A stretch of 64,000 bases of DNA from an uncultured Actinomycetota bacterium (GCA_963756705.1 CAVWOS010000009.1:18120-82119), one strand, 5' to 3'. Shown: positions 2,138-37,830, numbered from the stretch's first letter. Numbers and translations: made by a program. Notes: a model not told the origin generated them from the letters alone.

Positions 2138-2233
2138 CTGGTGAAGTGAAGGGAATTGGCGCCACTCCGGCGCCAGCGGCCCCCGGGTAGTGCGAAAGTC
2201 GGGCCACCGACCCCTCAGAGGGGGGGTCAAAAA

Positions 2234-2377
2234 TGATGTGTCTGGTGTGTCATCGCAGGTCAAAGCCTCGGCTGATGTGTCAGCGACCTACCTCGATCAA
2301 CACATCGCGGCGGCCCGCCGACACATCACTCGAAGGGTCATACTCGGACAAACGACCCCTGCTGACACATCAGCCGA
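2234..2377. repeat. TGATGTGTC/GACACATCA motif array with a perfect 17-bp inverted repeat
   Basis: TCGGCTGATGTGTCAGC 2268-2284 and GCTGACACATCAGCCGA 2361-2377; further copies near 2234, 2299 (variant) and 2320. Confidence 0.85.
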
Positions 2378-3464: not shown

Positions 3465-3765
3465 TGATGGGAAAGCCGCGTGACCGGACAGCACGCGCCG
3501 GGCAGCGCGGACGCCTACCTCGATCGCCGGCGGAACCTCCCCGCGCAGCCCCGCACGATCCCGGCCCCGCGGCGGCGAACCGCGTTCGGTGGAAGGCCCA
3601 GCGCGAGGCCGCCGTTTCCGCCCGGGCGAATCGCCGGCCTGACCGAGCGCAGCCCGCTGGGCGGCGCGGACGAGTACGCCAGCCCGCGGCAACCCGCGGC
3701 CGGGGGCGAGCGAGAGGCCACGCTTCGGCGCGGGCGCCGTGGCGGCGCGCGGTTGTGGCAGTCGT

Positions 3766-3910
3766 CGGTCATGACCGACGACGCCGCCATCGGTCATGAC
3801 CGATGACCGATGCCCTCCCTATCGGTCATGACCGATAGGGCCTGGGCCGTGACCGATCCGGCTTTCCGTGACCGGTCACGATGACCGGTCGGATGTCCGT
3901 CGGGTGACCG
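3766..3910. repeat. CGGTCATGACCG palindrome cluster and TGACCG(A/G) direct repeats
   Basis: 12-bp palindrome at 3766, 3791 and 3823; the third extends to the perfect 24-bp CCCTATCGGTCATGACCGATAGGG (3817-3840). Confidence 0.85.
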
Positions 3911-3959
3911 GCGCCGCCCCGGCACCGGCGCACGCGTGCATCGGTGGTCGGTGTTTCGG

Positions 3960-5839
3960 TCACGGCCGGGAGCGGCCGACCGAGCGGAGATGGGCGCGGC
4001 CTTGTTCGCGTTGCCGCTGCGCGAGGAGGTCTTTCGCCCGCCGCATGTCGCGCTGGCCGGTCGATGGGGACACCTCGTTGCGTCGGGCGGCCTCGGCGCC
4101 GGACAGCCTCTTCCCTGTTGCTTCGGCCTCGGCCAGCCACTGGACGATGCGCTCGATGCGCTGGTCCTCGGTCAGCTCGCTGACCGGTGTCTGGTCGATC
4201 CACTGCTCAGGGGCGCGGGCGGTGGCCTCCGCGGGGTCGGTCGCCGGCGCTTCCCGTCGCGTCCCGGCCGCCGCGTCGCCGGTACGGGCGGCAGGGATGC
4301 CCGGTGTGAGATCGGGGGCGGCGGGGCGCGGCGGCTGTGCGTCTGCGCCGGGCCGCTCAGCAGTGACCCGAGCAGGCGCCCCCGCGGGGTCGGGGTCCGG
4401 GGTGTGATGCATGGCCGGTGCCGTGACCGATGAGGTGATGACCGATTCCGTGACCGGTGCGGACGGTCGGTGGCCGGTGCGCGGTGGCCGGCCGGATCGG
4501 TCATGCCGCGGTCACTGGCATCCGTGACCGATTCCGTGACCGATTCCGTTGTCCACTCCCCCGGGTCCTGCGCGCGACGGCCGGGGTCGCGCACCGTCCC
4601 TGGCGCGACGGCCGCCGTGTCGGGCGCGGGGTGTGCTCCGCGTGCGGGGTGGGCGCGCTCGGTCTCCTCTGGGGGGCCTTCTCCCGCCGGGGTGGGCTGT
4701 GGCCGGAGTGCCTGGAACTGCTGGAGCTGGTGGCTGTTCGGGAAGGCGCTGTACTGCCCCGCGTAGTCGCGGTAGTCCTGGAACCGGGCCTCGCCATCGT
4801 CCCGGCCCGTGGAATCGGTGGCCGGCCGCGCGGAGCGGGCGGCGGCGTCGGGGTGGGTGTCGGGGTCGTGTTCCCGGGCCGGGTGTTCCAACGCCATGCC
4901 GGCGTCAGGGGCTGCGGCGCCGGCGTGTTCCAACCCGATCGGCTCCGTCGGCCTCTGTTCCAACGGCCCTCGTTCCAACGGCGCCGGTTCCAACGGTTCC
5001 GGTTCCAGCGTGGCGGGCGCCGGGCGGTGCGGAAGGGCCGGCCCTTGGATGCCCGCGGCCTCCAGGCCGGCTTCCGCGGTCTCGGTGAGCGGCACCCCGT
5101 AGCGGGCGAGCCGCAGCGGCATGATCGCCTCGATGGGGGCCTTGCGGCGCCACGCGACGCCGTACCGCGCGCGCAGCCTGGCCCGGTACACCAGCCGGTC
5201 CTGCTCGCGCCGGATGACCTCCTCGTACGACCGCAGCTCCCACAGCTTCATCCGGCGCCACAGCCTGAAGGTCGGCAGCGGGGCGAGCAGCCAGCGGGTG
5301 ATGCGGACGCCCTCCATGTGCTTGTCGGCCGTGATGTCGGCGATCCGGCCGATCGCGTGCCGGGCGGCCTCGACCGAGACCACGAAGAGCACGGGGATGA
5401 TCGCGTGCATGCCGACGCCGAGCTTGTCGGGCCAGGCCGCGGCGCCGTTGAAGGCGATCGTCGCGATGGTCAGCAGCCACGCCGTCTGCCGCAGCAGCGG
5501 GAACGGGATGCGCAGCCAGGTCAGCAGCAGGTCGAGCGCCAGCAGCACGACGATCCCCGCGTCGACGCCGATCGGGAAGACGTTGGCAAAAGCGCCGAAG
5601 CCCTTGTGCAGGGCGAGCGTGCGCACCGCCGCGTAGGAACCGGCGAAGCCGATCCCGGCGATCACCACCACGCCGGACACCACAACGCCCACCAAGATCC
5701 GGTGCGTGCGGGTCAAATGCATACCGCTGTGGGGAGGGTTCACTTGCCGGCCGGCTTCCCGCGATAGGCCGCCGGTGTGGAGAGCGGGGGCCGGCGGTTC
5801 CGGGTCCGCGGTGCGCGGCTCGGTGTCCGGCTCGACCAT
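3960..5839 (-). CDS. DUF2637-family (Spd-like) membrane protein with C-terminal HTH (frameshift near 4430)
   Basis: IAGIGFAGSYAAVRTLA..FPIGVDAGIVVLLALDL..RWLLAPLPTFRLWRRMKLWELRSY signature; C-terminal LSGAEAARRNEVSPSTGQRDMRRA HTH in ORF 3960..4412. Confidence 0.8.
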
Positions 5840-5935: not shown

Positions 5936-8048
5936 TCAGGCGCGGAGGTTGACCAGCATCGGCGGCGCTGTCTCACCGGTGACGGCGGTGGCCGAGATGA
6001 CGGCGTGGCCGGCCGGTATCGCGGCGAGGTCGGAGGCCGACCAGCGGTCCCGCTCGACCCGGCGAACGGTGACGGCCTGGGTGGTGACCGCCTCCCCGGT
6101 GACCAGCCGGCGCACCCCGCGGGCGAGTCGTTTGGTGATGCCGCCGGACTGGTCGGGGGTGCGGGTGACGTCGGCCGCCTCCGTCCACGCGGTCCCCCAC
6201 GCCTGCGCGAACGCCCGGCCGTCCCAGGTGGAGATCCCGGCGAGCGCGATCCGGCAGCCCGCCGCGCCGAGCAGCGGGCCGCGCAGGTGCTCCGGCACGT
6301 CGTCCAGGGCGCGCAGCGCGAGCACGGCGCCGGCGTGCACCGGCCGCAGCTGTTGCAGGGCCCGCACCGACTCCGCCGTGACCGTGTGGGTGGCGTCGTC
6401 CAGGACCAGGCCGGCGAACAGGCCCCGGTCCCGCCGTGCGGTGGCGGCCGCGGTGAACTGCGCCAGCACCAGCCGGGCCAGGATGCGGGACGCCTCGGTG
6501 TGCCCGTGCTCGGGCAGGTCGACCCGCACCCGCAACGGCTGCTCCAGCGCGGCGGTCGTGAGCGCGAAGGGCCTGGACTGGTCGGTGGTGTCGAAGAACC
6601 CGGCGAACGCGGGCCGGTCCAGCAGCGCGACCCGGTCCGCCAGCAGCGCCCCGACGTCCCCCGGCTGGCCCGACTGCCGGGCGCGGGCGTCCAGTTCGCG
6701 CATCCAGCCCGGCTCACCCGCCTGGTCCAGACGCTCCCGCAGCATCGCCATGGCTGCCGCGTCCCCTTCCAGCAGCGCGCGCAGCTCGCTGGTGGAGGGG
6801 AATCGGCCGTGGGCCGCCCGGAACGGCCCGAGCACCCGGGACAACGCCGTCGCCGCCCGGCGGGGGTCGGCCCGCTCCCCTTCGGAGCCGTCCAGAAGCG
6901 CGGCAGACAGCAGCCCGGCCGCGGCGTCGGGATCGGCCGTGCCGGCGTACAGGTCCAGGCCGTACACCGAGCCCGGGTCGCCGCACCTGATCACCACGTC
7001 GAACGCCTGGTCCGGTCCGAGTCCGGCGCCCCGCGCGCCGACCGCCACCACCGCGGCGCCACCGGCGAGTGCTTGCAGACACAGCGACTCCACGACCGGC
7101 CGCACGATGTACCGGGTCTTGCCCGACCCGGACGGCCCGACCATCACCGCGGACGTCCCCAGCACCCCAGGGTCCAACGCCGCGCCCACGCCCCGGAACT
7201 GCTGCGGGTTGCGCGCGTCATCCGCCACCGTGCCGATGAGTACCTGAGCGGCCATCAGGTCATGCCGGGCGATGCGTGCCGGCAGGACGCGGGAGCCGGA
7301 CGGGTGCGGGTACGCTCCCGCTCCCCGGAGCTCCACCTCCCGGACGTACGCCACCACCCCCGCAGGGCCGGCCGCCGCCGCGGTCGACCAGGCCCGGGTC
7401 AGCCGGGCGAGATCCACGTCCGTCATTCGCCCGGCCGCCAGGTCGGCCGCGAGCCGGTCGGCCGCCCCGTGCAGGCCGGCGGCCCGCAACTGCGGCCACC
7501 CCGCCGGGTCCACAGCCGACCCGGCACCCTCCTGCGGCGCGGGGCGCGGCAGGAGGCGCCGCACGGCGGGGCGCAGGTAGCGGCGCCAGACCTCCGGCCA
7601 GTGGCCGGCCCGCCCGAACACGACGGCGAGCAGCGCCCACCACACCAGGTCGTAGACGTCCTGCGCGAGGATGAACCGGTGCACCTCGGCGAGCGTCCAC
7701 CGGTGGCCGGTCGGCGCGAGCCCGAGCCAGACCAGCGGCCGGACCCACAGCCAGTACAGGTAGTCATGAACGAGCGAGTGCGTCAGCCACCCCCCGAGCA
7801 GCGCGCCCACGGCCGTGCCGACCAGCCGGCGGTCGCGGGATGCGGTCGGGGTCGGCCGGCGGGCGCGGGGTGTGCCCGAAGGTGTAGATCCCGGGTGCAT
7901 CGCCGCGCCGCGGGGTACGCAGCCACGCCTCCATCGCCGCGCCAGGCCCGACCGGCACAGCCGGCGGAACCGCCGGCATGGGCGGAACCGCGCGGAGGGA
8001 CGGCGGGCCGGCGGGCGCCGGAACCCCGTCGGCCTGATCCTTGTTCAC
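5936..8048 (-). CDS. VirD4/TraD-like ATP/GTP-binding coupling-type protein (frameshift near 7840)
   Basis: Walker A GPSGSGKT, degenerate Walker B LVLDDA, N-terminal TM segments; N-terminus MNKDQAD (7764..8048) overlaps the upstream stop. Confidence 0.75.
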
Positions 8049-8920
8049 GTCTTTGCTCCCCCGCCGGGTATCAGCGGACGGTTCGACCAGGCGACCTCGA
8101 CGCGGGACTTGTCCCCCACCGCATTCGCGGTCGTGGTCCGGCGCTCGTACGTATGCCAGCCCGCGTACAACGCTTTGTAGAGCGGCGAGTGGTAGCCGGA
8201 CAGCACAATCGTCGCCCGGCAGTCCGCGAGGGCGGCTGCCAGTTCGCGATGCTCAGGTTCACCGCGCATATCTCGCTGGTACCGGCTGCCTGATGTGCGG
8301 GTATCGCCGAGATAGGGCGGATCGACGTAGAGCAGGACACGTGGGTTCTGGCCGTATTTCGCGATCAGATCGAGGGCCGGCAGGCACTCCAGCGACACGG
8401 TGTGGAGCCGCTCGGCTGCCGCGGCCATCCGCTCGACGTACCGTTCCAGGTAGCGGGGGACGGATGCCGTATCGCTGGGGTCGATGCGGCGTCTCCAGCC
8501 GGCCTTACGCAGCGAGCCGCCGCGCGATTGCGTGAGTTTCACCCAGACCCTGCGCGCGGTTTCCAACTCGTCCACAGACGCTTCCCGCGCCGCGAGAAGT
8601 TCCGCCCGGGAATGCGGCGTGAGGGCGCACACCCGGGCCAGGTCGATTGGTCGATCACGCAAAACCCGCCAGAACGTCATCAACTCACTGTCGATATCGT
8701 TGACTGTCTCCATCCGGGCCGGGCCTTTCGCCAGAAGAACGGCCAGGGAACCGCAGTACGGCTCGACGTAGTGACCGTGCTCGGGAAGCAGGGACACAAT
8801 CCACGGGGCGAGGGCTTGCTTGCCGCCGAAGTACGGGACGGGCGGCAGCACTCTGAGGATGGTGCTTTCACGGCTGGGAGGCGCCGGCCTGGCCGATTCG
8901 CCGGGGCAGGGGCGGGTCAC
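8045..8920 (-). CDS. orphan Dam/D12-class N6-adenine DNA methyltransferase
   Basis: PYFGGKQ motif X, YVEPYCGSLAV motif I, VNDID, LLYVDPPY motif IV; GTG start overlaps the upstream TGA. Confidence 0.92.
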   Translation of the reverse strand: MTRPCPGESARPAPPSRESTILRVLPPVPYFGGKQALAPWIVSLLPEHGHYVEPYCGSLAVLLAKGPARMETVNDIDSELMTFWRVLRDRPIDLARVCALTPHSRAELLAAREASVDELETARRVWVKLTQSRGGSLRKAGWRRRIDPSDTASVPRYLERYVERMAAAAERLHTVSLECLPALDLIAKYGQNPRVLLYVDPPYLGDTRTSGSRYQRDMRGEPEHRELAAALADCRATIVLSGYHSPLYKALYAGWHTYERRTTTANAVGDKSRVEVAWSNRPLIPGGGAKT

Positions 8921-9441
8921 GACAGGGCCCTCCGGATGTCGGCCAGCCGGTAGGCGGCCGGCCGGCCGGGAACGGCGTCCAGGCGGGTTGTGGGAACGTC
9001 GAGACCGGCCTTCCTCATGTGGCCCCTGAGGGTGCGGCCGACCATCGCCAGCCGGTCTGTGCGGCCGACCCACCGGCCCCACGTCGCCCCGTCGACGGCC
9101 TCCAGCCGGTCAGCGACCCGCGCGACGGTCAGCGCCTGCGGGTTGCCCTCCGCGGCGAAAGCGTCGAGGAGCAGCTTGGCAATCTCGGGCACGTCGGCCC
9201 GCGCGCCGGCGGCGGGGGCGGGCAGGCCCGCGACGGCCCCGCCGATGGGCGCAGGGCCCTTGTTCACGACGCGAACGGACAAGACGTGGCGCGGCTCATC
9301 GTCCTTGGCCGCATCGGCTTCGACAGTGACGACGGCGTCGACGGATGCGTCGGGCAGGGTGAGGGACACCCCGAGGTTGTCGCCGAGGTGCAGGGTCACC
9401 GCGGCGTTGCGGTAACGGGGGTGCGTGATCGGATCGTTCAT
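8917..9441 (-). CDS. chimeric protein: N4/N6-MTase N-terminal fragment fused to a copy of the TraB C-terminal domain
   Basis: VTLHLGDNLGVSLTLPDASVDAVVT (stops just before the expected DPPY) plus a 90-aa domain about 71% identical to the TraB C-terminus. Confidence 0.7.
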   Translation of the reverse strand: MNDPITHPRYRNAAVTLHLGDNLGVSLTLPDASVDAVVTVEADAAKDDEPRHVLSVRVVNKGPAPIGGAVAGLPAPAAGARADVPEIAKLLLDAFAAEGNPQALTVARVADRLEAVDGATWGRWVGRTDRLAMVGRTLRGHMRKAGLDVPTTRLDAVPGRPAAYRLADIRRALS

Positions 9442-9556
9442 GGGAATGCACGCTTTCTGCGTGGGGCGCGTCGCGCGCCACGTGGTGTCGTGGGGGTGGC
9501 GGGGTGGAGCCGGCCATCGACGGTCGACGGCGGGACCTTGACGCACTGGCGGCGAG

Positions 9557-11650
9557 TCACGGCAGGGCGCTGCGGATGTCGGCCAGCCGGTAGGCGGTCG
9601 GCCGCCCGGGAACGCCATCGAGGCGGATCGTCGGGACGTCGAGACCGGCTTTCCTGAGGCGGTCTTTGAGGGTGCGGCCGATCATCAGGGGTCGGTTCGC
9701 CCGCCCTTCCCACGCGCCGAAGACGGCCTCGTCGGCGGCAACCAGGTGGTCGGCGAGCTGCGCGATGGTCAGCGCCTGCGGGCTGCCCTCCGCCGCGAAG
9801 GCGTCGAGGAGCAGTTTGGCGATCTCCGGGATGCCGGACCGTACTGTGGCGGTGTCGTCGAGGGTCGGCAGGCCCGCGTCGACCCGTTCCTTGGCGCGGG
9901 CGGCCGCGGTGGTTGCGCTGATGGGTGGGACGTAGCGGAGCACCGGGTCGCGGTGTCGGGGGGTGATGCAGTAGAAGCGGCCGGCGTCTGCGGGCTCCCA
10001 CTCGCCAGGGCTGGGGACGAGCAGGTGCGGCAGCCACCCCCGGGAGATGGCGTCGGCCTGGCCGACCACCAGGGGGACGTCGGCCTGCCGGCACGGGAGC
10101 ATGATCCGCACGCCGAACACGTCGGCGACCGCGTCACCGAGGACGTCGGCGGTGGCGTCCTGGGTGCAGACCACCAGGGTCACCCTGGCTTTGCGGCCGA
10201 TGCGCAGCAGGTCCAGGGCGAGCTGCTTGCCGCGTTTGGACAGGCGGGGCCACTCGTCGACGAACGCGATGATCGCCGGGGCGTCGGGGGTGACGGTCCA
10301 GTTGTCCTCGACCGTGCCGAGCGCGGCGATCCGTGCCTCGGCCGTGGCGAGCAGGTGCTCCAGGAGTGCTTCGGCGTCTCTGGGGTTGAGGGCGCGGTGT
10401 GCGGCGCAGGGTCCCAGCGGGCCGAGTCCGCGGCCGGTGGGGTCGATGTCGATGGCGACGGCGTCGGTGCAGGCGGTGACGTAGTCGGCCATCGTGCGGA
10501 CCATCGTGGATTTGCCGCCGCCGGTGTCGGAGACGATCAGAGCGTGCTGTCCGGCCAGCACGACCGGTGTGGCGTCGCCGTCGATGCTGATGCCGATGCT
10601 GACCGGGTCGGTGATCGAGCAGGACAGCGGCGCGCGCAGCGGGGCGGGGGGCGGCGCCGCGAACGGGTCGGACAGCAGGATGCGCAGGGTGATGGCCGCG
10701 CCGTCCTCGGCGCTGGTGCGCTGCGCGAGCAGCCGGTTGTCGCCGACCCGCAGCGTGGTCGCCATCCTGGGCAGCACTCTGATCAGGTCCCCGAGGGTGC
10801 CGCCGGCCAGCACCACCGGCACCGTCCACCCCCAGGCGGTCTCGGCCGGCACGGCGACATCGGCGACCTGCGCGCGCTCCTTGCGCAGGGCCAGGATGAC
10901 GGCCTCGCGGGCCCGGCGGGGGTCCCGGCCGGCTTCGCGGATCGGGAACGGCTCCGGCTCCGGGGGCGCCTCCAGCTCGGTGTGCGCGGGCGGGGACGGG
11001 GGCACGAACAGCAGCTTGGGAACCCGCGGCCGGCGGCGCATCGGCCGACGCCCCTGCACCCACACCAACGCCACCGCGAACACGGCGAACAGCGCGGCAC
11101 AGAGCAGCGCGGCGGGTATCGAGATCCACCACACCCCCACCCACGCGGCCGGCAGTGCCAGCAGCCAGCCGACGGCAGCCAGATGCCGGCGGAAGCGGAC
11201 CTGGCCCCGGCCGATCGCCAGCATGCCGTCGGTCACTTCCAGGTGCCGGAACTCCTCCTGGCCCAGGCGCATCTGGAGCTGCGCCCACTGCATCATCTTG
11301 TAGGAGATCACCGGCGACGCGCCGCCGCCGTACATGCCGTAGCCCCCGCCATAGCCGCCGTAGCCGCCGCGGCTTCGTTGCTGGCGCTGTATCTGCATGC
11401 GCTGCATCTGCATGGCGGTGGCCTGCTTCTGCTGGTTCTTCAGCATGCTGATGTTCTGCGCGACTTCGGCCTGGGTCTTCTGGCGGTCCGCCTTCCACAG
11501 GCGGTACTGGTCGTTGAGGACACGGTGCGCGATGTGCGTGTCGGTCAGGTCCTCGGTACGCCACCAGCGGCCCCATTCGGCCCGCAAGTGGCGTGCTCCG
11601 GCGGACAAGGTGCCGGCCAGGGTGCTGGTGCTGGTGTTGTTGGTGGTCAT
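9557..11650 (-). CDS. traB: FtsK/SpoIIIE-family conjugative DNA translocase (TraB/TraSA-like)
   Basis: two TM helices, GQHALIVSDTGGGKST Walker A variant, FVDEW Walker B, RKARVTLVVCTQ sensor, C-terminal winged-helix-like domain. Confidence 0.8.
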   Translation of the reverse strand: MTTNNTSTSTLAGTLSAGARHLRAEWGRWWRTEDLTDTHIAHRVLNDQYRLWKADRQKTQAEVAQNISMLKNQQKQATAMQMQRMQIQRQQRSRGGYGGYGGGYGMYGGGASPVISYKMMQWAQLQMRLGQEEFRHLEVTDGMLAIGRGQVRFRRHLAAVGWLLALPAAWVGVWWISIPAALLCAALFAVFAVALVWVQGRRPMRRRPRVPKLLFVPPSPPAHTELEAPPEPEPFPIREAGRDPRRAREAVILALRKERAQVADVAVPAETAWGWTVPVVLAGGTLGDLIRVLPRMATTLRVGDNRLLAQRTSAEDGAAITLRILLSDPFAAPPPAPLRAPLSCSITDPVSIGISIDGDATPVVLAGQHALIVSDTGGGKSTMVRTMADYVTACTDAVAIDIDPTGRGLGPLGPCAAHRALNPRDAEALLEHLLATAEARIAALGTVEDNWTVTPDAPAIIAFVDEWPRLSKRGKQLALDLLRIGRKARVTLVVCTQDATADVLGDAVADVFGVRIMLPCRQADVPLVVGQADAISRGWLPHLLVPSPGEWEPADAGRFYCITPRHRDPVLRYVPPISATTAAARAKERVDAGLPTLDDTATVRSGIPEIAKLLLDAFAAEGSPQALTIAQLADHLVAADEAVFGAWEGRANRPLMIGRTLKDRLRKAGLDVPTIRLDGVPGRPTAYRLADIRSALP

Positions 11651-13059: not shown

Positions 13060-13476
13060 TTACGCGGGGCGGAGGTAGGCCGCGTACACCCACCCGGTGA
13101 AGCCGGACCGCAGTCCGGACGCGCTGCGCCGGGTCAGCCGCACCTGGAACCACGCTTGGTTCCAGCTCTCTCTGATCGGCGTCATGTGGTCGCCCCGGTA
13201 CAGCAGCCCGTAGGTCGTGTGGTGCGTGCTCGGTCCCGACCTGATCCGCAGGCCGTTCACCTTCGGCGTGGCCGTCCCGAATATCCACTCCGTCGTCGGG
13301 GCGAGCCGCGGGGCGGGGGCGGCCGATGCGGCGCCCACCCCGACCACTCCGATCAGCACCAGGCTTGCCGCCGCGGCCAGCGGCACCAGGCGCGTCGTGA
13401 TGCCCCTTCTGCGGGTGCTCCTTCTTCGGCTCCGGCCGGGCTGGGCGGGGGGCGGGGGAATGCGTGTGGTTTCCAC
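13060..13476 (-). CDS. secreted SH3b-domain protein
   Basis: Arg-rich signal peptide with AASA cleavage; GLRIRSGPST..GLLYRG..WFQV..GWVYAAYL is an SH3b signature. Confidence 0.8.
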   Translation of the reverse strand: METTRIPPPPAQPGRSRRRSTRRRGITTRLVPLAAAASLVLIGVVGVGAASAAPAPRLAPTTEWIFGTATPKVNGLRIRSGPSTHHTTYGLLYRGDHMTPIRESWNQAWFQVRLTRRSASGLRSGFTGWVYAAYLRPA

Positions 13477-13816
13477 GGCTTCTTCTTTCTGGTGCGGGGT
13501 ATACCGGGGTGACCACCCCTGGATGTGGGGGCGGTCCCGGTGTCTGCGGCCAGATTGGGCAGACCGGCCCCGCCCTGCCCAGAGCCCACATACTGAGCCG
13601 TATGGCTCATATGGGGCCTCTACCTTGCATTGGCGCATCGGGGACCCGTATCGGCTGCACCGCTCCATGTACGGGACCCTGCGGCGGGATCGGGCGGGCC
13701 CGGGCGGGCCGGGAGTGGCCCCCGTCACTTTGTCTGGACGACCCCCCGGCGCAAGGCATTACCTTCCTGGCATAAGGACCGAAAGCGGATCATCACGATG
13801 CACAGGGAGCCACGCC

Positions 13817-15733
13817 ATGCCCACACTCGACGAGGTGATCAACACCATCCCGGGCCTGCACTACGCGGTGCCCCCGGACGGCCCGGCGCGGGCGGCCGTG
13901 ATGGGAGTGCGGTCGACCGGCCACGGTTCCCCCCGACGCTGGGAGAACGGCCGGGAGGTGTCCGGCTGGCGGGGCCTGCTGGCGCTGCTGACCGGCAGCC
14001 CTGTGCAGTACGGCCCCCTGGTCCGCGCGCTGGCCGGCGGCGGCGCGGCGGGGATCGTCTGCGCCGCGCCGGTGCCCGCCGGGCTGGTGTCCGCCGGCCG
14101 TGCCCACCATCTGCCGGTCGTGGAGGTCACCGCTGAGGCGGCATCCGCGGAGTACCTCGCCGAAGCCGTCTTCAGCCTGCGGGACGCCGAGGAGACCGCG
14201 CACGCCAACTCCTTGCAGAAGCAGCTGGACAGCGCTCGGGGGCTACTGACCAGCGCGGGGAAGCAGGACGCCGTTCAGGCGATCCGGCAATGGCTGGAGG
14301 GAGCCGTGGGCGGCGAGGTGATGCTGGTAGCGCCCCATCAGGTGGGGCCCCCGATGCTGCCGTCCGGGCAGATCGTGCCGCGCGAAGAGATCGCCGCCCT
14401 CGCCGAGAGCGGGCAGATCGCGGCGAAGGAGGTGACGGTCGAGGACGGCCTGTCGGTGCGGCTGTCCTCTCTGAGCACCGGCATGCCCCATCATGTGCTG
14501 GCGGTGGCCCGCGAGGGCGGATGGCCGAAGACCGCAGCTGATGCGATAGCCCTGGCCAGCCCGGTGCTTGCCAGCTGGCTTCGGCAGGCCGCCGTCGGCG
14601 ACGCCGAGCGGGTGCCGGCCCGGACTGCGGTGCTCCAGATGCTCCTGGACGAGCAGGTACAACCGGCCCGGGAGGCCGCCAAGGCGATACGCGTCGCCCA
14701 CGCCGTCCTGCACACCGCCGCCCGGGTCAGGGTGTGCGTCATCAGCAGCCCATCGCAGGACATGGTGGTGTCCGCGCTCCATCACCACCTGGGCGACAAG
14801 GCCCTGGTCGTGCCGTACGGGGAGACCATCGTCGCGGTCATCGTGGACGACGAGAAAGTCCTGGCCGCCCTGCGCAGGTACCTCCACCCCCGGCGTGCCT
14901 ACATCGGCGTCAGCGGGCGGCATGCGCTGGACGAGGTCCGGGTGGGACATCTCCACGCGCGCCAGGCCATGGGCGCGGCCACCGACCGGCCGGAGCGGTG
15001 GGCACGATACGTGCCTGTCCTGTCCGATCTGGCCTCCGCGCTTCCCATCGGCCCGGCCTACCGCTGGCAGCAGGACCTCCTCCAGCCGCTGGAGGGTCTG
15101 CGCCCGGCCACGCGTGACCTGTGGCTGGAGACCACCCGCCTGGTCATGACCCACGGCACGTCGGTGGCCGCCGCGACCATGGGGGTGCACTACAACTCGG
15201 TCCGACGCCGCACCGCACAGATCTCCGGGGCACTCGGCCTGGACCCCGGCGACCCCGGCGACAGCATCGTGCTCGACCTGGCGCTGCGCATCCGCCGCCT
15301 GCGGCTGCGGGCACCGGCGCGCTCCACGCCCATCACCCTCGGCGAACTGCTGGAGACCCCGGCGGCGAGCGCCTGGGCCCGCACCATGATCGGCACGCTG
15401 CCCCCGCACCTCCTGGAAATAGTGATCGTCTGGCTCGATGCCTGGGCCGACGGCGCCGACGGCGCCAACGCCCGTGCGGCCGAACGCCTCGGCACCATGC
15501 CCAAAACGCTCCGGCGCCGCCTGCACGAGGCCGAGGCCCTCCTGGGGCGCACCCTGGTCACCAGCGCCCCCCTCGCAGGACCCGACCCGACCCCGGGCCG
15601 GGTCGGCTCGCGGCCGCCCCAACCGCCCAGCACACTCCCCGCCGAGCGCGGAATCAACGACCTCTTCCTGGCCGCGACCATCACCGGCACCCTGCAACGC
15701 CCCGTCCTGACCCCCCGCCACACCCAACGCTGA
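13817..15733 (+). CDS. PucR/CdaR-family transcriptional regulator with two C-terminal HTH domains
   Basis: AAATMGVHYNSVRRRTAQISGALGLD and AAERLGTMPKTLRRRLHEAEALLG; AGGGAG SD before the ATG. Confidence 0.8.
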   Translation: MPTLDEVINTIPGLHYAVPPDGPARAAVMGVRSTGHGSPRRWENGREVSGWRGLLALLTGSPVQYGPLVRALAGGGAAGIVCAAPVPAGLVSAGRAHHLPVVEVTAEAASAEYLAEAVFSLRDAEETAHANSLQKQLDSARGLLTSAGKQDAVQAIRQWLEGAVGGEVMLVAPHQVGPPMLPSGQIVPREEIAALAESGQIAAKEVTVEDGLSVRLSSLSTGMPHHVLAVAREGGWPKTAADAIALASPVLASWLRQAAVGDAERVPARTAVLQMLLDEQVQPAREAAKAIRVAHAVLHTAARVRVCVISSPSQDMVVSALHHHLGDKALVVPYGETIVAVIVDDEKVLAALRRYLHPRRAYIGVSGRHALDEVRVGHLHARQAMGAATDRPERWARYVPVLSDLASALPIGPAYRWQQDLLQPLEGLRPATRDLWLETTRLVMTHGTSVAAATMGVHYNSVRRRTAQISGALGLDPGDPGDSIVLDLALRIRRLRLRAPARSTPITLGELLETPAASAWARTMIGTLPPHLLEIVIVWLDAWADGADGANARAAERLGTMPKTLRRRLHEAEALLGRTLVTSAPLAGPDPTPGRVGSRPPQPPSTLPAERGINDLFLAATITGTLQRPVLTPRHTQR

Positions 15734-23151: not shown

Positions 23152-24090
23152 ATGCGAGAAACACAAGCACAGACCGTACAGGTATCGCCGCTTGGCGACG
23201 ACCTGGCGTTCCTCGACATCACCACCGAATGGGACCTTGAGACTCCGTACCACGACTGGCGGGTCTCGATCGTTGTCCCGGACACGTTCCGGCCCAACCC
23301 GCGCACGCCTCGTGTCATTGCCGTCGCGAATCAGAAGGGCGGGACGGGTAAGACGCTGACGGCGTTCGAGCTGGCCATGGCCCTGATCGCCCGGGGTCTG
23401 CGCGTGCGGCTGATCGACGCCGACCCGCAGTCGGCTGCCCTGACCGCATGGCTGATCGCGTGCTTCCCCGAGGGCAAGCGGCGGACGCTGACGGACGTGC
23501 TGATGGAGCGCTGCACGCTCGCCGACGCCACCTATCCGACTCCGTACGCCGGCCTTCACGTGGTCGTCTCCGCCCCCGACCTGGGCGAGGTAGAGAATTC
23601 CCACGAGAAGCCTCCGGGCGTTGAGTCCCTGCTCCAGTACCACCTGAGCGTCGACAAGGACTTCGACGTCACGGTCATCGACTCCGGCCCCAGCCTGGCG
23701 CTGCCCACGGTCGCCGCGTTGGTCGCCGCTCACGACGTGGTGGTCCCCGTCCAGGCCGCGAGCGGGCTGGACGTGAAGGGAGCAGCCTCCCTCCAACAGA
23801 CGATCAAGAGGGTGAGGGGACGCCTCAACCCCGAGCTGCGCGTCGCCGCCACATTCCTGACGGACTTCGACAGGTCGACCCTCGCCCGCACGATAGGAGC
23901 GAGGATGACCAAGGCATTCCCCGGGGCCCTGGTAGTTCCGGTCCGCCGCTCGGTGCGCGTCGGTGAAGCACAACTCGCCATGCAGCCGCTGCGGCTCTTC
24001 GCGCCCGGCACGTCGACCACCCTCGACTACGACCTGGCTGCGGCGCTGCTGACCGGCGGCACGGTCCCGGCACAGAGGACGGCGAGCTGA
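23152..24090 (+). CDS. parA: ParA-family partition ATPase
   Basis: NQKGGTGKT deviant Walker A, LIDADPQ, VIDSGP. Confidence 0.92.
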   Translation: MRETQAQTVQVSPLGDDLAFLDITTEWDLETPYHDWRVSIVVPDTFRPNPRTPRVIAVANQKGGTGKTLTAFELAMALIARGLRVRLIDADPQSAALTAWLIACFPEGKRRTLTDVLMERCTLADATYPTPYAGLHVVVSAPDLGEVENSHEKPPGVESLLQYHLSVDKDFDVTVIDSGPSLALPTVAALVAAHDVVVPVQAASGLDVKGAASLQQTIKRVRGRLNPELRVAATFLTDFDRSTLARTIGARMTKAFPGALVVPVRRSVRVGEAQLAMQPLRLFAPGTSTTLDYDLAAALLTGGTVPAQRTAS

Positions 24091-33524: not shown

Positions 33525-34718
33525 CAACCGCGGAGCCCGCCAACCCCGTAGACGACACCACGTTCACCCGGCCCCTGATCAAGGCCCTTCAGGGGCAGAT
33601 CGACGTGCTGGCCGCGACGATTCCCGGGCCGGACGCGCACCGCGTGGCGAGCGCCTGGGTGTACACCAGCATGCTGGCCGCGTGGTGCGAGGACCACGGC
33701 CTGACCCCGACGCGGCTGCGCGCCGACGCCGAGCCGGCGCGCAACGAGCACCAAGCCGCAGGCGGCAGCATGCTGAGCTGGCTGGGTCTCGCGTTCGCCG
33801 ACCTGACCGCGCACCCGGCAACCGCGTGCCTGCTCGACCCCCGCTACAACCCGGCCACCGCGGGCGCTCCGTCGGAGGACGCCGCCCGCGGCCTGATCGA
33901 GCTGGTGGTCCACCGACGCGCCCGACCTGGTCTACCCGACGGGGAGGGGCCCGGCGTCGATCACCGGGTGGCTGGCCGGCGACATGCTCCAGCTTGTCAC
34001 CAGCGAGCGGCGCCTGGCCAACGCCCTGTGCCAGACGCCGTGGTGGGTCGCGGACTTCCTGTGCGAGCGGACCCTGCTCCCCGCGATGTCCGAATGGCCC
34101 GGCGAGCGGCTGCGCGTCATCGACCCCGCCTGCGGGACCGGCCACATCCTCATCTGGATGCTCATCGGCCTGTACCGGTGGTACCGGTCCGACGGCCCCG
34201 GACACCCTGCCTGCACCCCGCAGCACGCGATCCGCCGCGCCCTGTCCGGCCTGCACGGCGTGGAACTCGACCCGCTCACCGCCGCAGTCGCCCGCCTCCG
34301 CGTCCTGGTGACCGCAGGCGCGCTGCTCGCCGGCGACGAAGGGCTGCCCGGCCCGCTGCGCCTCGCCTCGATCCCGCACGAGTGGCGGCCCCGGATCGCG
34401 GTCGGCAACAGCCTCCTGGCCGGCCTCGACGATCCGTGCCCGCCCGGCACGATCCTGGACGACACCGCCGACTACCCGCACATCCTCAAACGCGGCACCT
34501 ACCACGCCGTCATCGCCAACCCCCCGTACATCACCGTCAAAGACCCGGTGGTCAACGCGGCAATCCGGACCGCCTACAGCAACGTGTGCTCCGGCAAGTA
34601 CAGCCTCAGCGTGCCGTTCACCGTGCTGCTCTTCGACCTCGCGATCCGCGGCCGCCACACCGCCGCCGTACCGGAAGCCCCCGAGCAGCTCGGCCTCTTC
34701 CCGGAAACGGCCGCCTGA
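33521..34718 (+). CDS. short (~400 aa) PglX/BREX-2-like N6-adenine DNA methyltransferase (frameshift near 33900)
   Basis: ALCQTPWWVADFLCERTLLPA, IDPACGTGH motif I, GVELDP, ANPPYITVKD..CSGKYSLSVPF. Confidence 0.75.
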
Positions 34719-35992
34719 TGCCCCCGGCCCCGCGCACCGCGGACTGACCCGCTGGCAGGCGGTCCCGCTGGCCATCGGGTCGATCGCCGGCTCCGGCATC
34801 CTCTTCCTGCCGTCGGCGGTGTACTCGCGGGCGGGCCACAACAGCCTGCTGGTGTGGGCGGCCTCGACGCTGCTGTGCCTGCCGATGCTGCTGATGTTCG
34901 ACGACATGGTCCGCAGCAACCCCGGCGGCCGCGGCATCGAGGCGTTCATCCGGCTGGGGCTGGGCGAGATGTTCGGCCGCTGCGTGCCGGTGATGTTCAT
35001 CGCGCTGGTCATCGTCGGCCTGCCGTCCGGCGCGTTCGTCGCCGGACGCTACGTCGCCCAGGCGTTCGACGTGGGCCGCACCGTGACGATCGTCATCGCG
35101 GCGGCCGTGCTGGCCGCCGCGGTGCTGGTCAACCTGATCGGCGCGCGGGCCAGCACCCGGGTGCAGACCGCGGCCACCTGGGGCCTGGTGCTGGTGGCCA
35201 CCGCGCTGCTGGTCTCCGCCATCCCCTCGGTGCACCACGGCCTGCACACCGTCTCACCCACCAGCAGCCACCTGGACGTGGTGCTGCCCGGGGTACTGCT
35301 GGCCTTCTGGGCGTTCGCCGGATTCGAGAACCTGACCTTCCTCGCCCGGGAGTTCCGCGACCCCGAACGCGACTTCCTGCCGGTCAGCGCCCTCGCGCTG
35401 GCCGTCTACGGCGTGTTCACCATCCTGCTCACCGTGGCCATCGCCGTCACCGTGCCCCGCGCCGACGTCGACCAGGTGGTCGGGCTGCTCCAGCTCGCCA
35501 AGGCCGTCGGCTACGGAAAGATCGTCATCTGGGCCGTCACGTTCATCGCCTGCTGCGCCATGCTGCTCAACGCGGTCGCGTGGGTCTGGGGCGTCTCCCA
35601 ACTGGTGCGCGACGCGGCGGACAACGGCATGCTGCCGGCCGCGTTCGCCTCCTCACAGGGGGAGTCCGGCGCACGCCGGAGCCTGGCCCTGCTGGTCGGC
35701 CTGTTCTGCGTGACCTCGGTGGTCCTGGGCTTCCGGCCCTCCACCGTCGTCGACACCACCGCCACCGCCAGCGCGATCTTCATGCTGCTCTACATCCTGA
35801 GCATCATCTCCTACCTGCGGGTGCGCGGCCTGACCGTGCGCTCCGGACTCAACCTGATCCTGCTGGTCGTCATCGTGATCAGCCTCGTCCAGTCCCGCTG
35901 GCAGGCGCTCTACGGGGTGATCGTGCTCCTGGCCGCGCTGGCCGTCCAACTCCTCCAGCGGCGCCGGGCCCGCGGCGCGCCCGCACCGGTGA
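34718..35992 (+). CDS. APC-family amino acid permease (start region reconstructed)
   Basis: GSIAGSGILFLP TM1 motif, FWAFAGFENLTFLAREFRDPER TM6 motif, about 12 TM segments. Confidence 0.85.
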
Positions 35993-36497
35993 CCGGGGCC
36001 TTGGACGAGTTGGACGCGCTGTTCGGCGGCGACGGCTGGACGCACGCGCGGCGGATCGAGGTCCGCGGCGGCTACGCCTCGGACCGTCAGGACCCGCGCT
36101 GGGCCTACTGGCAGGCGACCCGACAGGTCGAGGCGGACCCGGACCGTCCCTGGTACACGCTGGTGCGGCGGTTGCGGGGCGAGGGCAGGGTCATCGAGCG
36201 CGTACGGGTCGTGGACACCCCGCCGACCCTCGGCCAGCTCTACCTGCGGGCAGTGGCCAGGGCCGGGAACACCCCGGCGGGCGAGACGATCCGCGAACTC
36301 GGCCGGGCCCGAGCCCGTTGCTCGGGCTGGACCAGGACGTTTGGCTGTTCGACGGGCCCCGGCCGACCGTCGCGACGCTGCGCTTCAGCGCCCGCGACGA
36401 CCTGCTCGGCATCACGGTCTCCCGCACCCCGGCCGACATCGCGGCCGCCCGCCACCGCTGGCGGACCGCCTGGGACGCCACCGCGGAGCAGACATGA
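35989..36497 (+). CDS. DUF6879-like protein (frameshift near 36310)
   Basis: ARRIEVRGGY..W..G..IERVRVVDTPPT..YL..GETIR..DVWLFD pattern. Confidence 0.55.
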
Positions 36498-37830
36498 CCT
36501 CAACGGACAGTCCGAACGCCGGCAGACCCGCTGACGGATCGTCCCCTGAGCGCCGACCCCGCTGGGCCGCCGACCCCGACCCGACCCCTCAACCGGCCGG
36601 CCGGGCCCGCGGGCGGCACAAGCGCCCCCAAGAGGCCCGGCCTGTGCCGCTGCCCCAGCGGGTCGGCCAGTCGCTGGCGCTGCCCGTCGCCGCCCTGCCC
36701 GCAGCCGGGTTCCTGCTGCGCATGGGGCAGCCCGACCTGCTGGGACGCTGGCACCCGGTGCACACCCTGGCCGCCGTGTGCACGGCCGCGGGCAGCAGCG
36801 TGCTCGACAACCTCCCGCTGCTTTTTGCCCTCGGGCTGGGGCTCGGCCTGCCCCGGGGCAAGGACCGTACCGGCCCGGTCCTGGCCAGCGTCGTCTCCTA
36901 CCTCGTACTGACCCGAACCCTGCTGACCTTGTGTCCGCTCCCCGCGGGCCAGCCCGACAACATCCCTGCCCGATGGCCCTACGGCGCCCTGGGCGGTCTC
37001 CTCGCCGGACTCCTCGCGGTGTCCGTCTGGGGGCTGGTCGAGCGCCGGCGCATCCCGGCGTTCGCCGGCTACGGATTGGTCGCGGCCACAGCGGCGGGCA
37101 GCGGCTGGGCCCTCGCCCTGCCCTACCCGGCCGTCAACCGGGCCCTGACCGCGTTCGCTTCCACCAGCGCCCACCACCCGGTCATCGGTGGCGCGATGTT
37201 CGGCTTCCTGAATCGTGCCTTGCTACCGATTGGCCTTCATCAATTGCCGAATTCCGTCGTGTGGTGGCTTACCGGCCGTTGCCGGGCGGGCACGACAGGC
37301 GACATCCCGTGCTTTCTCGCTCACGACCCCCACGCGGGCACCTATCTTTCGGGATTTTTCCCGATCGCGATTTTCGCGCTGCCCGCCGCCGCACTGGCGA
37401 TGTGGCACTGCGCGCCGCCTGACCAGCGCCGCGCCGCGGCCCAGATTCTACTGCCCGCCGCTGCGATGTCGTTCGCGTTCGGGGTCACCGAGCCCTTGGA
37501 ATTGGCCTTCGCCTTCGTCGCGATTCGCCTCTACCTCGTCCACGCCGTGCTGACCGGCTCCTGCCTGGCATTTGTCAATTGGTTGGGCATCCACGACGGG
37601 TTCGTTTTCTCTGCCGGCGCCGCGGACTTCCTCTTCAACTGGCACTTGGCCACCCGTCCCTTGTGGCTGCTGCCCATCGGCGCGGCGTACGGCGTCATCT
37701 ATTACGTCCTGTTCCGGCTTCGCGATCGTCCACTTCGACCTGCCCACCCCGGGCCGGCTCGGACGAGGCGCCCCGACCATCCCGGACCCAGACCCCAGTC
37801 CATCGACGAGGGGACCCCGCCAGATGATCC
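36494..37830 (+). CDS. PTS EIIC component, GlcNAc/glucose family (NagE-like; frameshift near 37727; 3' end uncertain)
   Basis: QRVGQSLALPVAALPAAGFLLRMGQPD, NRALLPIGLHQ, GVTEPLE, FSAGAADF, F-D-LPTPGR tail. Confidence 0.85.

What the first reader, a model, noticed from the sequence alone, without database searches (positions are those of the whole stretch)
8917..9829. Tandem duplication of the TraB DNA-recognition domain, fused to a decapitated methyltransferase
Seen: 9557-9829 (TraB last 90 aa) and 8917-9189 are colinear 273-bp copies 640 bp apart, about 64/90 aa identical by manual count. The ends are conserved and substitutions cluster in the central helices (GRTLKDRL vs GRTLRGHM). The copy is fused behind LHLGD..LPDASVDAVVT, an N4/N6-MTase N-terminus cut just before DPPY. 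Established: the TraB C-terminal winged helix determines clt specificity. Inference: a free-standing specificity domain that could compete for clt (entry or incompatibility control), recognise another plasmid's clt, or serve as a recombination reservoir for specificity switching.
Basis: partly seen in the sequence, partly recalled or inferred. Interest (0 to 1): 0.72.

Follow-up and report, generated by a model that had tools for sequence, protein, structure and literature searches.

The report
Stand-alone copy of TraB's DNA-reading domain
A Streptomyces conjugative element carries, right behind its DNA-pumping transfer gene traB, a small chimeric gene born by tandem duplication that encodes a free copy of TraB's DNA-recognition domain; the copy is kept intact by selection and swaps sequence with traB, which gives a handle on how such elements change the DNA signal they transfer.

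Summary
8911-9210 and 9551-9850 are a 300-nt direct repeat (78% identical, 640 nt apart; 70/105 aa). On the minus strand it forms a 174-aa gene, "S" (9441..8917), between traB (11650..9557) and a Dam-type methylase (8920..8045).

S is a chimera. Residues about 10-41 match the N-terminus of an N6/N4 methylase and stop just before DPPY. That methylase sits intact right after S in three related loci. Residues 50-174 copy TraB residues 564-697. One tandem duplication across the traB/methylase border explains this.

S is rare: eight loci, all from one narrow TraB clade. Its winged helix is as conserved as TraB's own, while the methylase relic evolves neutrally. The two copies exchange sequence, and a second, foreign winged helix sits on TraB in one relative and inside S in another.

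The candidate clt arrays show a conserved layout with element-specific 8-mers. Here the 8-mer (GACACATC, 2223-2375) goes with TraB's unusual recognition helix, while S keeps the type linked to GACTGGTC in sibling elements.

Expression, DNA binding and role are untested. My best inference is a co-expressed, trans-acting clt-type DNA binder. This is a new variant of a known system and moderately interesting.

The parts
9557..11650 (-). traB, an FtsK-like conjugative dsDNA translocase of 697 aa
   Evidence: Pfam AAA_10 at E 1.2e-6 and NCBIfam plasmid_TraB at E 3e-11, the latter far below its cut-off. GC3 is 0.92. It is 82-86% identical by tblastn to the TraBs of L001-L006.
9557..9961 (-). Copy 1 of the duplicated segment: TraB residues 564-697. 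It comprises the linker and the winged helix ('B'); the winged-helix core is 9560-9832.
   Evidence: The nucleotide identity between the window and L002 drops from about 100% to 70-78% at 9891/9892, at the module border.
9438..9560 (-). Leader ORF of 40 codons. Its GTG overlaps the traB stop (GTGA) and its TGA overlaps the S start (ATGA).
   Evidence: Read from the sequence. The same stop/start relay occurs in L003, L004 and L005; in L006 and L002 the leader is in frame with S. The sequence just upstream of the S start, CAGAAAGTGCGCATTCCCATGAAC, is conserved.
8917..9441 (-). S: a chimeric 174-aa gene (MNDPITHPRY...) with no Pfam or NCBIfam family
   Evidence: The MNDP-type start is shared by L003, L004, L005 and L006.
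9319..9441 (-). S residues 1-41: a relic of an N6_N4 methylase N-terminus, ending in VTVE where the methylase has CDPPY
   Evidence: hhalign gives 94% probability and E 1e-7. Pooled pN/pS is 1.02, against 0.21 for the same stretch in the real methylases.
9295..9318 (-). Junction (ADAAKDDE). This is the site of large in-frame insertions or deletions in relatives.
   Evidence: Alignments
8920..9294 (-). Copy 2: the TraB-derived part of S. The linker is 9193-9294 and the winged helix ('S' copy) is 8920-9192.
   Evidence: The AlphaFold model has pLDDT 90 and pTM 0.77 with the topology H-b-H-H-H-b-b-H. S shows 0 changes at the 30 columns that are invariant in TraB.
8045..8920 (-). Dam-type (D12) adenine methylase. 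Its GTG start overlaps the S stop (GTGA).
   Evidence: Pfam MethyltransfD12 at E 8e-20; sequence. In L001, L005 and L006 this slot holds an N6_N4 methylase, and in L002 it is empty.
5936..7900 (-). 654-aa P-loop protein (GPSGSGKT), conserved in all relatives and annotated 'ATP-binding protein' in pSITFR-21a
4172..5839 (-). DUF2637 membrane protein, the next gene in the conserved order
   Evidence: Pfam at E 9e-45; synteny
2223..2375 (-). Candidate clt: 8-bp repeats GATGTGTC/GACACATC, three in each orientation, followed by the conserved core TGACCTGCGAT-GACACACC-A-GACACATC-ATTTTTGACCCC
   Evidence: All four exact copies in the 64 kb lie here. The same architecture with other 8-mers occurs in L002, L003, L004, L007, L012, L013 and L017.

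Best explanation
Shown. One tandem duplication spanned the 3' end of traB (about 135 codons: linker plus winged helix) and the first 40 or so codons of the N6_N4 methylase gene that then followed traB. The duplication junction became a new chimeric gene, S. It consists of a methylase start and relic, then a variable junction, then the TraB linker and winged helix. The methylase relic now evolves neutrally and mainly supplies the start site. The winged helix is under purifying selection as strong as that on TraB's own. The two copies exchange sequence by gene conversion, and the TraB winged helix behaves as a swappable module among sibling elements.

Inferred. S is translated together with TraB through a relay of overlapping stop and start codons (traB, leader ORF, S, methylase). 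Its product is a free, motor-less winged helix that binds TraB-type 8-bp repeats in trans. I think it most likely modulates which DNA TraB can load on, by occupying such repeats. In this window the resident TraB and candidate clt pair appears to have moved to GACACATC, while S keeps the type that goes with GACTGGTC in siblings. S would therefore act mainly on sibling-type sites, not on the resident clt.
For: Origin:
- The junction ..DAxVT|VE.. and the methylase relic are shared by all S proteins.
- The relic matches the N6_N4 methylase N-terminus, and the intact methylase follows S in L001, L005 and L006.

Conservation:
- S has 33 invariant columns of 90 and TraB has 30. Mean pairwise identity is 0.666 for S against S and 0.679 for TraB against TraB.
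- S differs from its own TraB in 16 of 210 cells at TraB-invariant columns, against 141 of 420 at variable columns. For the window's S the figures are 0 of 30 against 26 of 60.
- A neutral simulation gives P(0) of 0.0014 or less at 10% or more change per site.
- dN/dS between S orthologues is 0.37-0.79.
- The relic plus linker stays in frame in 6 of 7 loci despite many indels. It is broken only in L004, a decaying element whose traB is frameshifted and which carries IS insertions.
- The frame keeps coding-like GC at codon positions 1, 2 and 3 of 0.75, 0.55 and 0.84.

Coupling: GTGA and ATGA overlaps and a conserved initiation region, and no promoter- or terminator-like site between the genes.

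Fold: pLDDT 90, and the top Foldseek hits are almost all winged-helix or winged-helix-containing proteins.

Exchange:
- L002 has a 240-nt tract that is about 100% identical between its two copies.
- Same-locus identity between the copies is 0.75 against 0.664 across loci; 4 of 5040 permutations reach the observed value.
- The copies do not form separate S and TraB clades.
- A second winged helix (wHTH2) sits on TraB in L020 and inside S in L005.

Specificity: the candidate clt 8-mers co-vary with the N-terminus of the recognition helix, and the window's S is of the GACTGGTC-associated type at 10 of 13 diagnostic columns.

Precedent: an isolated FtsK gamma domain acts in trans (PMC3130261). Other free or differently fused versions of this winged helix also exist, namely P0014, P0022, P0026 and P0027.
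Against: - There is no transcript, protein or binding evidence; no RNA runs hold this sequence.
- S is dispensable for the system. pSITFR-21a (TraB motor 89% identical) and L021 lack it.
- Only eight loci are known. Seven are metagenome assemblies, so some of the mosaic patterns could be assembly chimeras; L002 and L004 come from the same sample.
- Gene conversion from traB could mimic some of the conservation.
- dN/dS of 0.37-0.79 is only moderately below 1 and rests on 90 codons of very GC-rich sequence.
- A monomeric winged helix may bind a single 8-mer only weakly.
- The link between 8-mer and helix is a correlation over about nine related elements.
- The arrays are candidate clt sites by architecture only.
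- Foldseek E-values are above 0.1, and FtsK gamma is not among the top hits.
Confidence: 0.55

Rival explanations
1. S is a duplication scar with no function of its own. The ORF stays open because ribosomes must read through it to reach the coupled downstream genes. The winged helix looks conserved only because gene conversion from the selected traB copy keeps refreshing it.
For: - The methylase relic has pN/pS of about 1.0.
- The linker varies widely in length.
- There is a clear conversion tract in L002, and same-locus copies are more similar than cross-locus copies.
- S is absent from pSITFR-21a and L021.
- The family is very rare.
Against: - The window's S and TraB copies differ at 26 of 60 variable columns, with synonymous difference of about 0.3 across the whole domain. 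There has therefore been no recent domain-wide conversion, yet S has 0 changes at the 30 TraB-invariant columns.
- S orthologues keep 33 invariant columns, more than TraB's 30.
- The conserved MNDP start and its upstream region are kept.
- The C-terminal halves of L002_S and L006_S share S-specific residues not found in their own TraBs.
Confidence: 0.15
2. S is kept mainly as a recombination donor. It would be a stored alternative recognition module that can be copied into traB, letting the lineage change or recover clt specificity, much as a silent cassette does.
For: - Patchy conversion tracts, and no separate S and TraB clades.
- The C-terminal half of the window's S is closest to the TraB copy of L004, at distance 0.12.
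- The foreign wHTH2 sits on TraB in L020, with its own repeat array CTCATACG, and inside S in L005.
- The break in window-versus-L002 identity falls at the motor/winged-helix border, in elements with nearly identical motors but different candidate clt 8-mers.
Against: - A silent donor needs no start codon, no coupling relay and no in-frame leader, yet all of these are kept.
- Switching the protein without switching the array of 8-mers at the clt would abolish transfer.
- There is only one cassette.
- Selection for future usefulness is weak.
- The direction of exchange cannot be read from these data.
Confidence: 0.18
3. S is an ordinary transcription factor. It would be a winged-helix repressor or activator of the tra/spd operon or of the adjacent methylase gene, unrelated to clt.
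For: - Winged-helix fold.
- Small size and position within the operon.
- Other free versions of the domain occur away from traB, in L018 and L019.
Against: - No operator-like repeat lies near traB or S.
- The domain is 67-85% identical to the resident TraB recognition domain and keeps exchanging sequence with it.
- The downstream methylase is variable or absent while S stays.
Confidence: 0.08
4. The repeat is an assembly artefact or a chance similarity.
For: The origin of the window is unknown, and most relatives are metagenome assemblies.
Against: - The same architecture occurs in eight independent contigs from different samples, at 45-68% protein identity.
- Soil-metagenome contigs match the window's S exactly at 9029-9193 and 9213-9364.
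- The protein match has E 7e-40.
Confidence: 0.01

Closest known systems
TraB of Streptomyces plasmids such as pSVH1, with its C-terminal clt-recognition domain and 8-bp TRS repeats (Vogelmann et al. 2011, as cited in PMC4447253 and PMC4170104)
   Same: The winged helix of S is a direct paralogue of the resident TraB C-terminus (67% identity). The relatives show arrays of 8-bp repeats of the kind described for clt, in some cases directly after traB (L007, L012, L013, L017, L020).
   Different: S has no membrane anchor and no motor domain, so it cannot translocate DNA. It is a separate gene with a start taken from a methylase gene. I found no description of a free-standing TraB recognition domain in the papers searched.
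Isolated gamma (winged-helix) domain of FtsK acting in trans (PMC3130261)
   Same: It is the recognition module of an FtsK-family pump, and it folds and works when detached from the motor.
   Different: That isolated domain is a laboratory construct whose read-out is XerD activation. S is a natural gene. There is no detectable sequence match to any PDB chain, and FtsK gamma is not among the top structural hits.
Silent-cassette gene-conversion systems such as pilE/pilS (from general knowledge, not tested here)
   Same: A partial second copy of the variable part of an expressed gene lies nearby and exchanges sequence with it by gene conversion.
   Different: There is one copy only. It has its own conserved start and appears to be translated. 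The cognate DNA site would have to change as well.
N6_N4 (beta-class) DNA methylases, Pfam PF01555
   Same: S residues about 10-38 are homologous to the stretch that precedes motif IV in the methylase found next to S in L001, L005 and L006 and in pSITFR-21a.
   Different: S lacks DPPY, the AdoMet-binding motif and the remaining 500-plus residues, and the relic evolves neutrally. S is not a methylase.

Membership tests
TraB-type C-terminal winged-helix (clt-recognition) domain | Sequence homology to the C-terminal roughly 90 aa of a Streptomyces TraB | tested here: met
   BLASTP gives 70/105 identical, E 7e-40, against the resident TraB. There are 27 invariant columns across S proteins and TraB.
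TraB-type C-terminal winged-helix (clt-recognition) domain | Winged-helix fold | tested here: inconclusive
   The AlphaFold model has pLDDT 90 with helix-strand-helix-helix-helix-hairpin topology. Nearly all top Foldseek hits are winged helices (H1, FOXO, ORC, MukE, MarR), but E-values are above 0.1 and TM-scores are 0.4-0.5.
TraB-type C-terminal winged-helix (clt-recognition) domain | Covalently attached to an FtsK-like motor and membrane anchor | tested here: not met
   S is a separate 174-aa ORF with no AAA or FtsK domain.
TraB-type C-terminal winged-helix (clt-recognition) domain | Binds the 8-bp TRS repeats of a clt | not testable with these tools
   Only a correlation is available, between recognition-helix residues and the 8-mer of the candidate clt arrays.
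N6_N4 DNA methyltransferase (PF01555) | Catalytic motif IV, (D/S)PPY | tested here: not met
   S reads ..DAVVTVEADA.. where the neighbouring methylases read ..DAVICDPPYG...
N6_N4 DNA methyltransferase (PF01555) | AdoMet-binding motif I and the full catalytic domain | tested here: not met
   No Pfam or NCBIfam hit for S. Only about 32 columns align.
FtsK gamma domain | Detectable sequence or close structural similarity to solved gamma domains | tested here: not met
   A profile search of PDB sequences found 0 hits at E up to 10. FtsK gamma is absent from the top 50 Foldseek hits.
Silent-cassette gene-conversion system | Conversion tracts between the donor copy and the expressed gene | tested here: met
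   L002 has a 240-nt tract about 100% identical between its copies. Same-locus similarity exceeds cross-locus similarity; 4 of 5040 permutations reach the observed value.
Silent-cassette gene-conversion system | The donor copy is silent, with no start or promoter | tested here: not met
   There is a conserved ATG, a purine-rich upstream element and a stop/start relay. Actual expression was not tested.

The most novel reading that the evidence does not exclude
S is an interference factor in competition between sibling conjugative elements. On this reading S is a free winged helix that keeps the ancestral 8-mer specificity (GACTGGTC type). It sits on the clt of related incoming or co-resident elements and blocks loading of their TraB. 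The resident TraB and clt pair has escaped by co-evolving to GACACATC. This would be a 'jam and escape' arms race over transfer specificity.
Probability: 0.12. Interest if true: 0.85.

Novelty: new variant of a known kind. Interest (0 to 1): 0.58.

Why it matters
How Streptomyces plasmids choose the DNA they pump, and how that choice changes, is known from only a few laboratory plasmids. This locus offers natural material for that question in three ways.

- Elements whose TraB motor stretch is almost identical carry different recognition domains and different candidate clt 8-mers.
- A simple residue pattern at the start of the recognition helix tracks the 8-mer.
- A second, free copy of the domain exchanges sequence with traB.

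If S binds DNA, it would be the first natural trans-acting partner or competitor of TraB. It could explain exclusion or incompatibility between related elements, whose mechanisms are poorly understood in this conjugation system. The locus is also a clean example of a new gene born at a tandem-duplication junction, with one half kept by selection and the other half decaying.

Tried and rejected
- RNA evidence. The run search found only three soil-metagenome DNA runs and no RNA. Laying their contigs confirmed identical fragments of S but showed no deletion or swap joints.
- Wider sampling. The GTDB species-representative scan gave 8 TraB loci, none with a second copy. PLSDB gave 11 plasmids, each with one copy. 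The metagenome scan gave one irrelevant locus. The profile search of 1.84 billion representatives gave only 37 hits.
- PDB searches. The sequence search found nothing, and both Foldseek searches gave only non-significant winged-helix hits.
- The promoter and terminator scan found nothing between traB and S.
- Search for a clt next to traB. The first repeat searches around traB and S found no 8-mer array there. The candidate clt turned out to lie about 7 kb downstream, and I found it only through the conserved core shared with L002 and L007.
- P0011, at first taken for a free domain, is the end of a TraB cut by a contig edge.
- I considered that the divergent centre of the window's TraB winged helix was imported from a distant donor. 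I think that unlikely. Synonymous difference is flat across the domain and only non-synonymous difference rises, and no sampled sequence is close to that centre, at 58-68% identity.
- I considered that the methylase relic is a functional domain and rejected it, because pN/pS is about 1 and the model confidence there is about 55.
Full report
**1. What is in the sequence**

The window is 70-77% G+C and Streptomyces-like. All close matches are to Streptomyces.

The genes below run in this order on the minus strand.

| Gene | Coordinates | Evidence |
|---|---|---|
| traB, 697 aa | 11650..9557 | AAA_10; weak NCBIfam plasmid_TraB |
| Leader | 116 nt between traB and S | |
| S, 174 aa | 9441..8917 | no known family |
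| Dam-type D12 methylase | 8920..8045 | E 8e-20 |
| P-loop protein, 654 aa | 7900..5936 | |
| DUF2637 protein | 5839..4172 | |

8911-9210 and 9551-9850 are 300 nt long, 78% identical and 640 nt apart. At protein level this is 70/105 identical, E 7e-40.

**2. S is a chimera made by a tandem duplication**

S has only seven other relatives among 5.8 billion proteins. Every one of them lies directly behind a TraB of the same narrow clade; by tblastn those TraBs are 79-89% identical to this one. The gene order is always the same:

- TraB
- S
- a variable slot
- a protein of about 690 aa (the 654-aa P-loop protein here)
- DUF2637

The variable slot holds a 582-aa N6_N4 methylase in L001, remnants or starts of the same methylase in L005 and L006, a D12 methylase in L003, L004 and this window, and nothing in L002.

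The N-terminus of S (..AVTLHLGDNLGVSLTLPDASVDAVVT|VE) aligns with the N-terminus of that N6_N4 methylase (..AVRLYLGDCLDVLATLPDASVDAVI|CDPPYG). The profile-profile comparison gives 94% probability and E 1e-7, and the match stops right before the catalytic DPPY.

After a short junction, S continues with a copy of TraB from residue 564 (PRHRDPVLRYV against PRHVLSVRVV) to the end.

The arrangement traB, then [methylase head + TraB tail], then intact methylase is what a tandem duplication of [TraB tail + methylase head] produces. The junction is shared by all S proteins, so the duplication happened once. The D12 methylase in this window is a later replacement.

Two relatives lack S. pSITFR-21a is a complete 325-kb linear plasmid with a TraB motor 89% identical to this one. 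It has traB, two cargo genes, the N6_N4 methylase and the ATP-binding protein, but no S. L021 has traB followed directly by the ATPase-like gene. S is therefore an accessory gene, not a core part of the transfer system.

**3. One half is kept and the other decays**

The winged helix of S is as conserved among S orthologues as TraB's is among TraBs. S has 33 invariant columns of 90 and TraB has 30. Mean pairwise identity is 0.666 for S and 0.679 for TraB.

At the 30 columns invariant in the seven TraBs, S proteins differ from their own TraB in 16 of 210 cells. At variable columns the figure is 141 of 420. For the window's S it is 0 of 30 against 26 of 60.

The two window copies differ at about 0.3 of synonymous sites along the whole domain. 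They have therefore not been homogenised recently. A neutral simulation gives a probability of 0.0014 or less of zero hits at those 30 codons once 10% of sites have changed.

Nei-Gojobori dN/dS values are as follows.

| Comparison | dN/dS |
|---|---|
| S against S | 0.37-0.79 |
| TraB against TraB | 0.28-0.59 |
| TraB against S in the same locus | 0.31-0.60 |

These numbers are rough, because the sequences are short and very GC-rich.

The 27-codon methylase relic gives a pooled pN/pS of 1.02, against 0.21 for the same codons in the real methylases. AlphaFold agrees with this split. The winged helix is confident (pLDDT 90, pTM 0.77). The relic scores about 55 and the linker below 50.

The linker carries many insertions and deletions, all in frame in six of seven loci. 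The one broken copy is in L004, where traB itself is frameshifted and IS elements have landed. The relic plus linker still has coding-like GC at the three codon positions: 0.75, 0.55 and 0.84.

**4. Signs that S is translated (inference from sequence only)**

The traB stop overlaps a GTG (GTGA). That GTG opens a 40-codon leader ORF whose TGA overlaps the ATG of S (ATGA). The stop of S in turn overlaps the GTG of the D12 methylase (GTGA).

The same relay, with leaders of 31-41 codons, is present in L003, L004 and L005. In L006 the leader is in frame with S. In L002 it is also in frame but lacks a start codon at the traB stop. L001 differs.

The 24 nt before and including the S start, CAGAAAGTGCGCATTCCCATGAAC, are conserved while the rest of the leader varies. 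No promoter- or terminator-like site separates the genes.

No RNA data exist for this sequence.

**5. The two copies exchange sequence, and the module is mobile**

In L002 the two copies are about 100% identical over 240 nt, and identity then falls to 53-70%. Across the seven loci, copies in the same locus are more alike (0.75) than copies from different loci (0.664). Only 4 of 5040 permutations reach the observed value.

Trees and sliding nearest-neighbour tables show no S clade and no TraB clade. For example, the C-terminal half of the window's S is closest to the TraB copy of L004.

The window and L002 are 96-100% identical over 1.1 kb of the traB motor (10990-9892). Identity drops to 70-78% at 9891, where the linker and winged-helix module begins.

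Most telling is L020. There the TraB of this clade ends in a different winged helix (wHTH2), followed by its own array of CTCATACG repeats, and then by an S that still carries the original type. In L005 the same wHTH2 (67% identity, E 2e-30) sits inside S, between the relic and the original winged helix.

A caveat applies. All these relatives except pSITFR-21a are metagenome assemblies, and L002 and L004 come from one sample. Some mosaic boundaries could be assembly chimeras. The statistics across all seven loci are less exposed to that problem.

**6. Candidate clt and a read-out pattern**

Published work says that TraB hexamers assemble on 8-bp repeats in clt through their C-termini (PMC4447253, PMC4170104).

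In L007, L012, L013 and L017 an array of 8-mers lies directly after traB. In L002, L003, L004 and this window an equivalent array lies several kb downstream, between conserved genes. All share one layout: several 8-mers in one orientation, several in the other, and then a core. The core reads TGACCTGC, three bases, an 8-mer, one base, an 8-mer, and then A(A/T)TTT(T/C)GACCCC.

The 8-mer differs between elements.

| Locus | 8-mer |
|---|---|
| This window (2223-2375) | GACACATC; all four exact copies in the 64 kb lie here |
| L002, L003, L004 | GACTGGTC |
| L007, L008, L011 | GACAGGCC |
| L013 | GRCAGGYC |
| L012, L017 | GACGCATC |

The 8-mer type tracks the start of the recognition helix.

- Elements with ..(A/G)CA.. 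8-mers have xNR(P/N/L)LM(I/V)GR. These are the TraBs of the window, L012 and L017.
- Elements with ..(T/A)GG.. 8-mers have (T/A)DR(L/V)AM(V/I)GR. These are the TraBs of L002, L003, L004, L007, L008, L011 and L013.

I took the 13 columns where the three GACTGGTC-associated TraBs agree with each other and the window's TraB differs. At these columns the window's S has the GACTGGTC-associated residue at 10 and the window-TraB residue at 1.

The window's TraB is the outlier, reading DEAVFGAWEGRANRPLMIGR where the others read DPATWGRWxGRTDRLAMVGR. Its excess divergence from S is non-synonymous only. This fits change in place, not import from a distant donor.

I infer that in this element TraB and its clt have shifted together while S kept the older type. 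This is a correlation over about nine related elements, and the arrays are clt candidates by architecture only.

**7. How it most likely works**

The following are shown:

- the chimeric origin of S
- purifying selection on the winged helix
- neutral decay of the relic
- gene conversion between the copies
- shuffling of the module between traB and S

The following are inferred:

- S is made together with TraB
- S binds TraB-type 8-mers in trans
- S, having no motor or membrane anchor, can only occupy such sites, and so modulates where TraB can load

An isolated FtsK gamma domain is known to act in trans (PMC3130261). Free or differently fused versions of this very domain also exist elsewhere, for example P0026 beside a Replic_Relax gene, and P0014 and P0022.

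The data cannot tell whether the selected role is self-regulation, interference with sibling elements, or service as a conversion donor. I give 0.55 to the general model and split the remainder among the rivals listed.

**8. Comparison and novelty**

S is a paralogue of the TraB recognition domain, but it is not a TraB because it has no motor. It carries a methylase relic, but it is not a methylase because DPPY and the AdoMet-binding motif are missing.

It resembles a silent cassette in exchanging sequence with the expressed gene. It differs in having a conserved start.

I found no description of such a gene in the searchable literature. That library misses most subscription journals.

I rate it a new variant of a known system. 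It is rare and functionally untested, but it comes with unusually direct comparative evidence and clear experiments.

Noticed in passing
window 2223-2375: Candidate clt in an AT-richer intergenic region: GATGTGTC/GACACATC, three copies in each orientation, then the core TGACCTGCGAT-GACACACC-A-GACACATC-ATTTTTGACCCC. The same layout with other 8-mers occurs in L002, L003, L004, L007, L012, L013 and L017.
   Followed up: yes
window 3760-3960 and 4420-4545: Dense arrays of (A/C)TCGGTCA(C/T), including GGAATCGGTCAC direct repeats and three TCGGTCATGACCGA palindromes. There are 12 copies in 250 bp against fewer than 1 expected. Similar CGGTCA arrays lie at the same place in L002, L003 and L004. They are probably sites for a conserved protein, perhaps the small HTH-like ORF at about 4200..3960, and not the TraB 8-mers.
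   Followed up: partly
window 9892-10990 against L002: About 1.1 kb of the traB motor is 96-100% identical to L002. The 5' third of traB (11650-11000) is only 63-83% identical, and everything past 9891 is 70-78%. The elements are recombination mosaics, or the metagenome contig is chimeric.
   Followed up: partly
L020 921-1409 and L005 1019-1258: A second, unrelated-looking winged helix (wHTH2, GAVPQLLLDAH...GYLAETLEAAI) forms the TraB C-terminus in L020, followed by CTCATACG repeats. In L005 the same domain is embedded inside S.
   Followed up: yes
window 8045-8920; L001 6080-7828; L002: The slot after S is a hot spot for methylase turnover. It holds a D12 Dam-type methylase here and in L003 and L004, an N6_N4 type in L001, L005 and L006, and nothing in L002. 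The start codon always overlaps the S stop.
   Followed up: partly
window 4949-5007 (inside the DUF2637 gene): A 15-nt tandem repeat (CGGCCCCGGTTCCAA, 3.9 copies) encodes a repeated LEP/PLE peptide in the C-terminal part of the DUF2637 protein. The last 130 or so codons of that ORF look like low-complexity read-through over the CGGTCAC repeats, so the true stop may lie earlier.
   Followed up: no
L019 1017-1592 (P0026); P0022; L018 (P0014): Other stand-alone proteins carry this winged-helix family behind unrelated N-termini: a coiled coil next to a Replic_Relax gene, a domain that by eye may be GIY-YIG-like (not scanned), and an unknown N-terminus.
   Followed up: partly
window 13217-15733, 23152-24090, 33984-34718, 34819-36534, 42572-45628: Context genes: a PucR-type regulator, a ParA-like ATPase, an Eco57I/MmeI-like methylase fragment, an amino-acid permease fused to DUF6879, and a PAS-GAF-SpoIIE phosphatase. 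pSITFR-21a also carries a SpoIIE phosphatase and an HTH protein near its tra region, so the window may come from a similar large linear plasmid.
   Followed up: no
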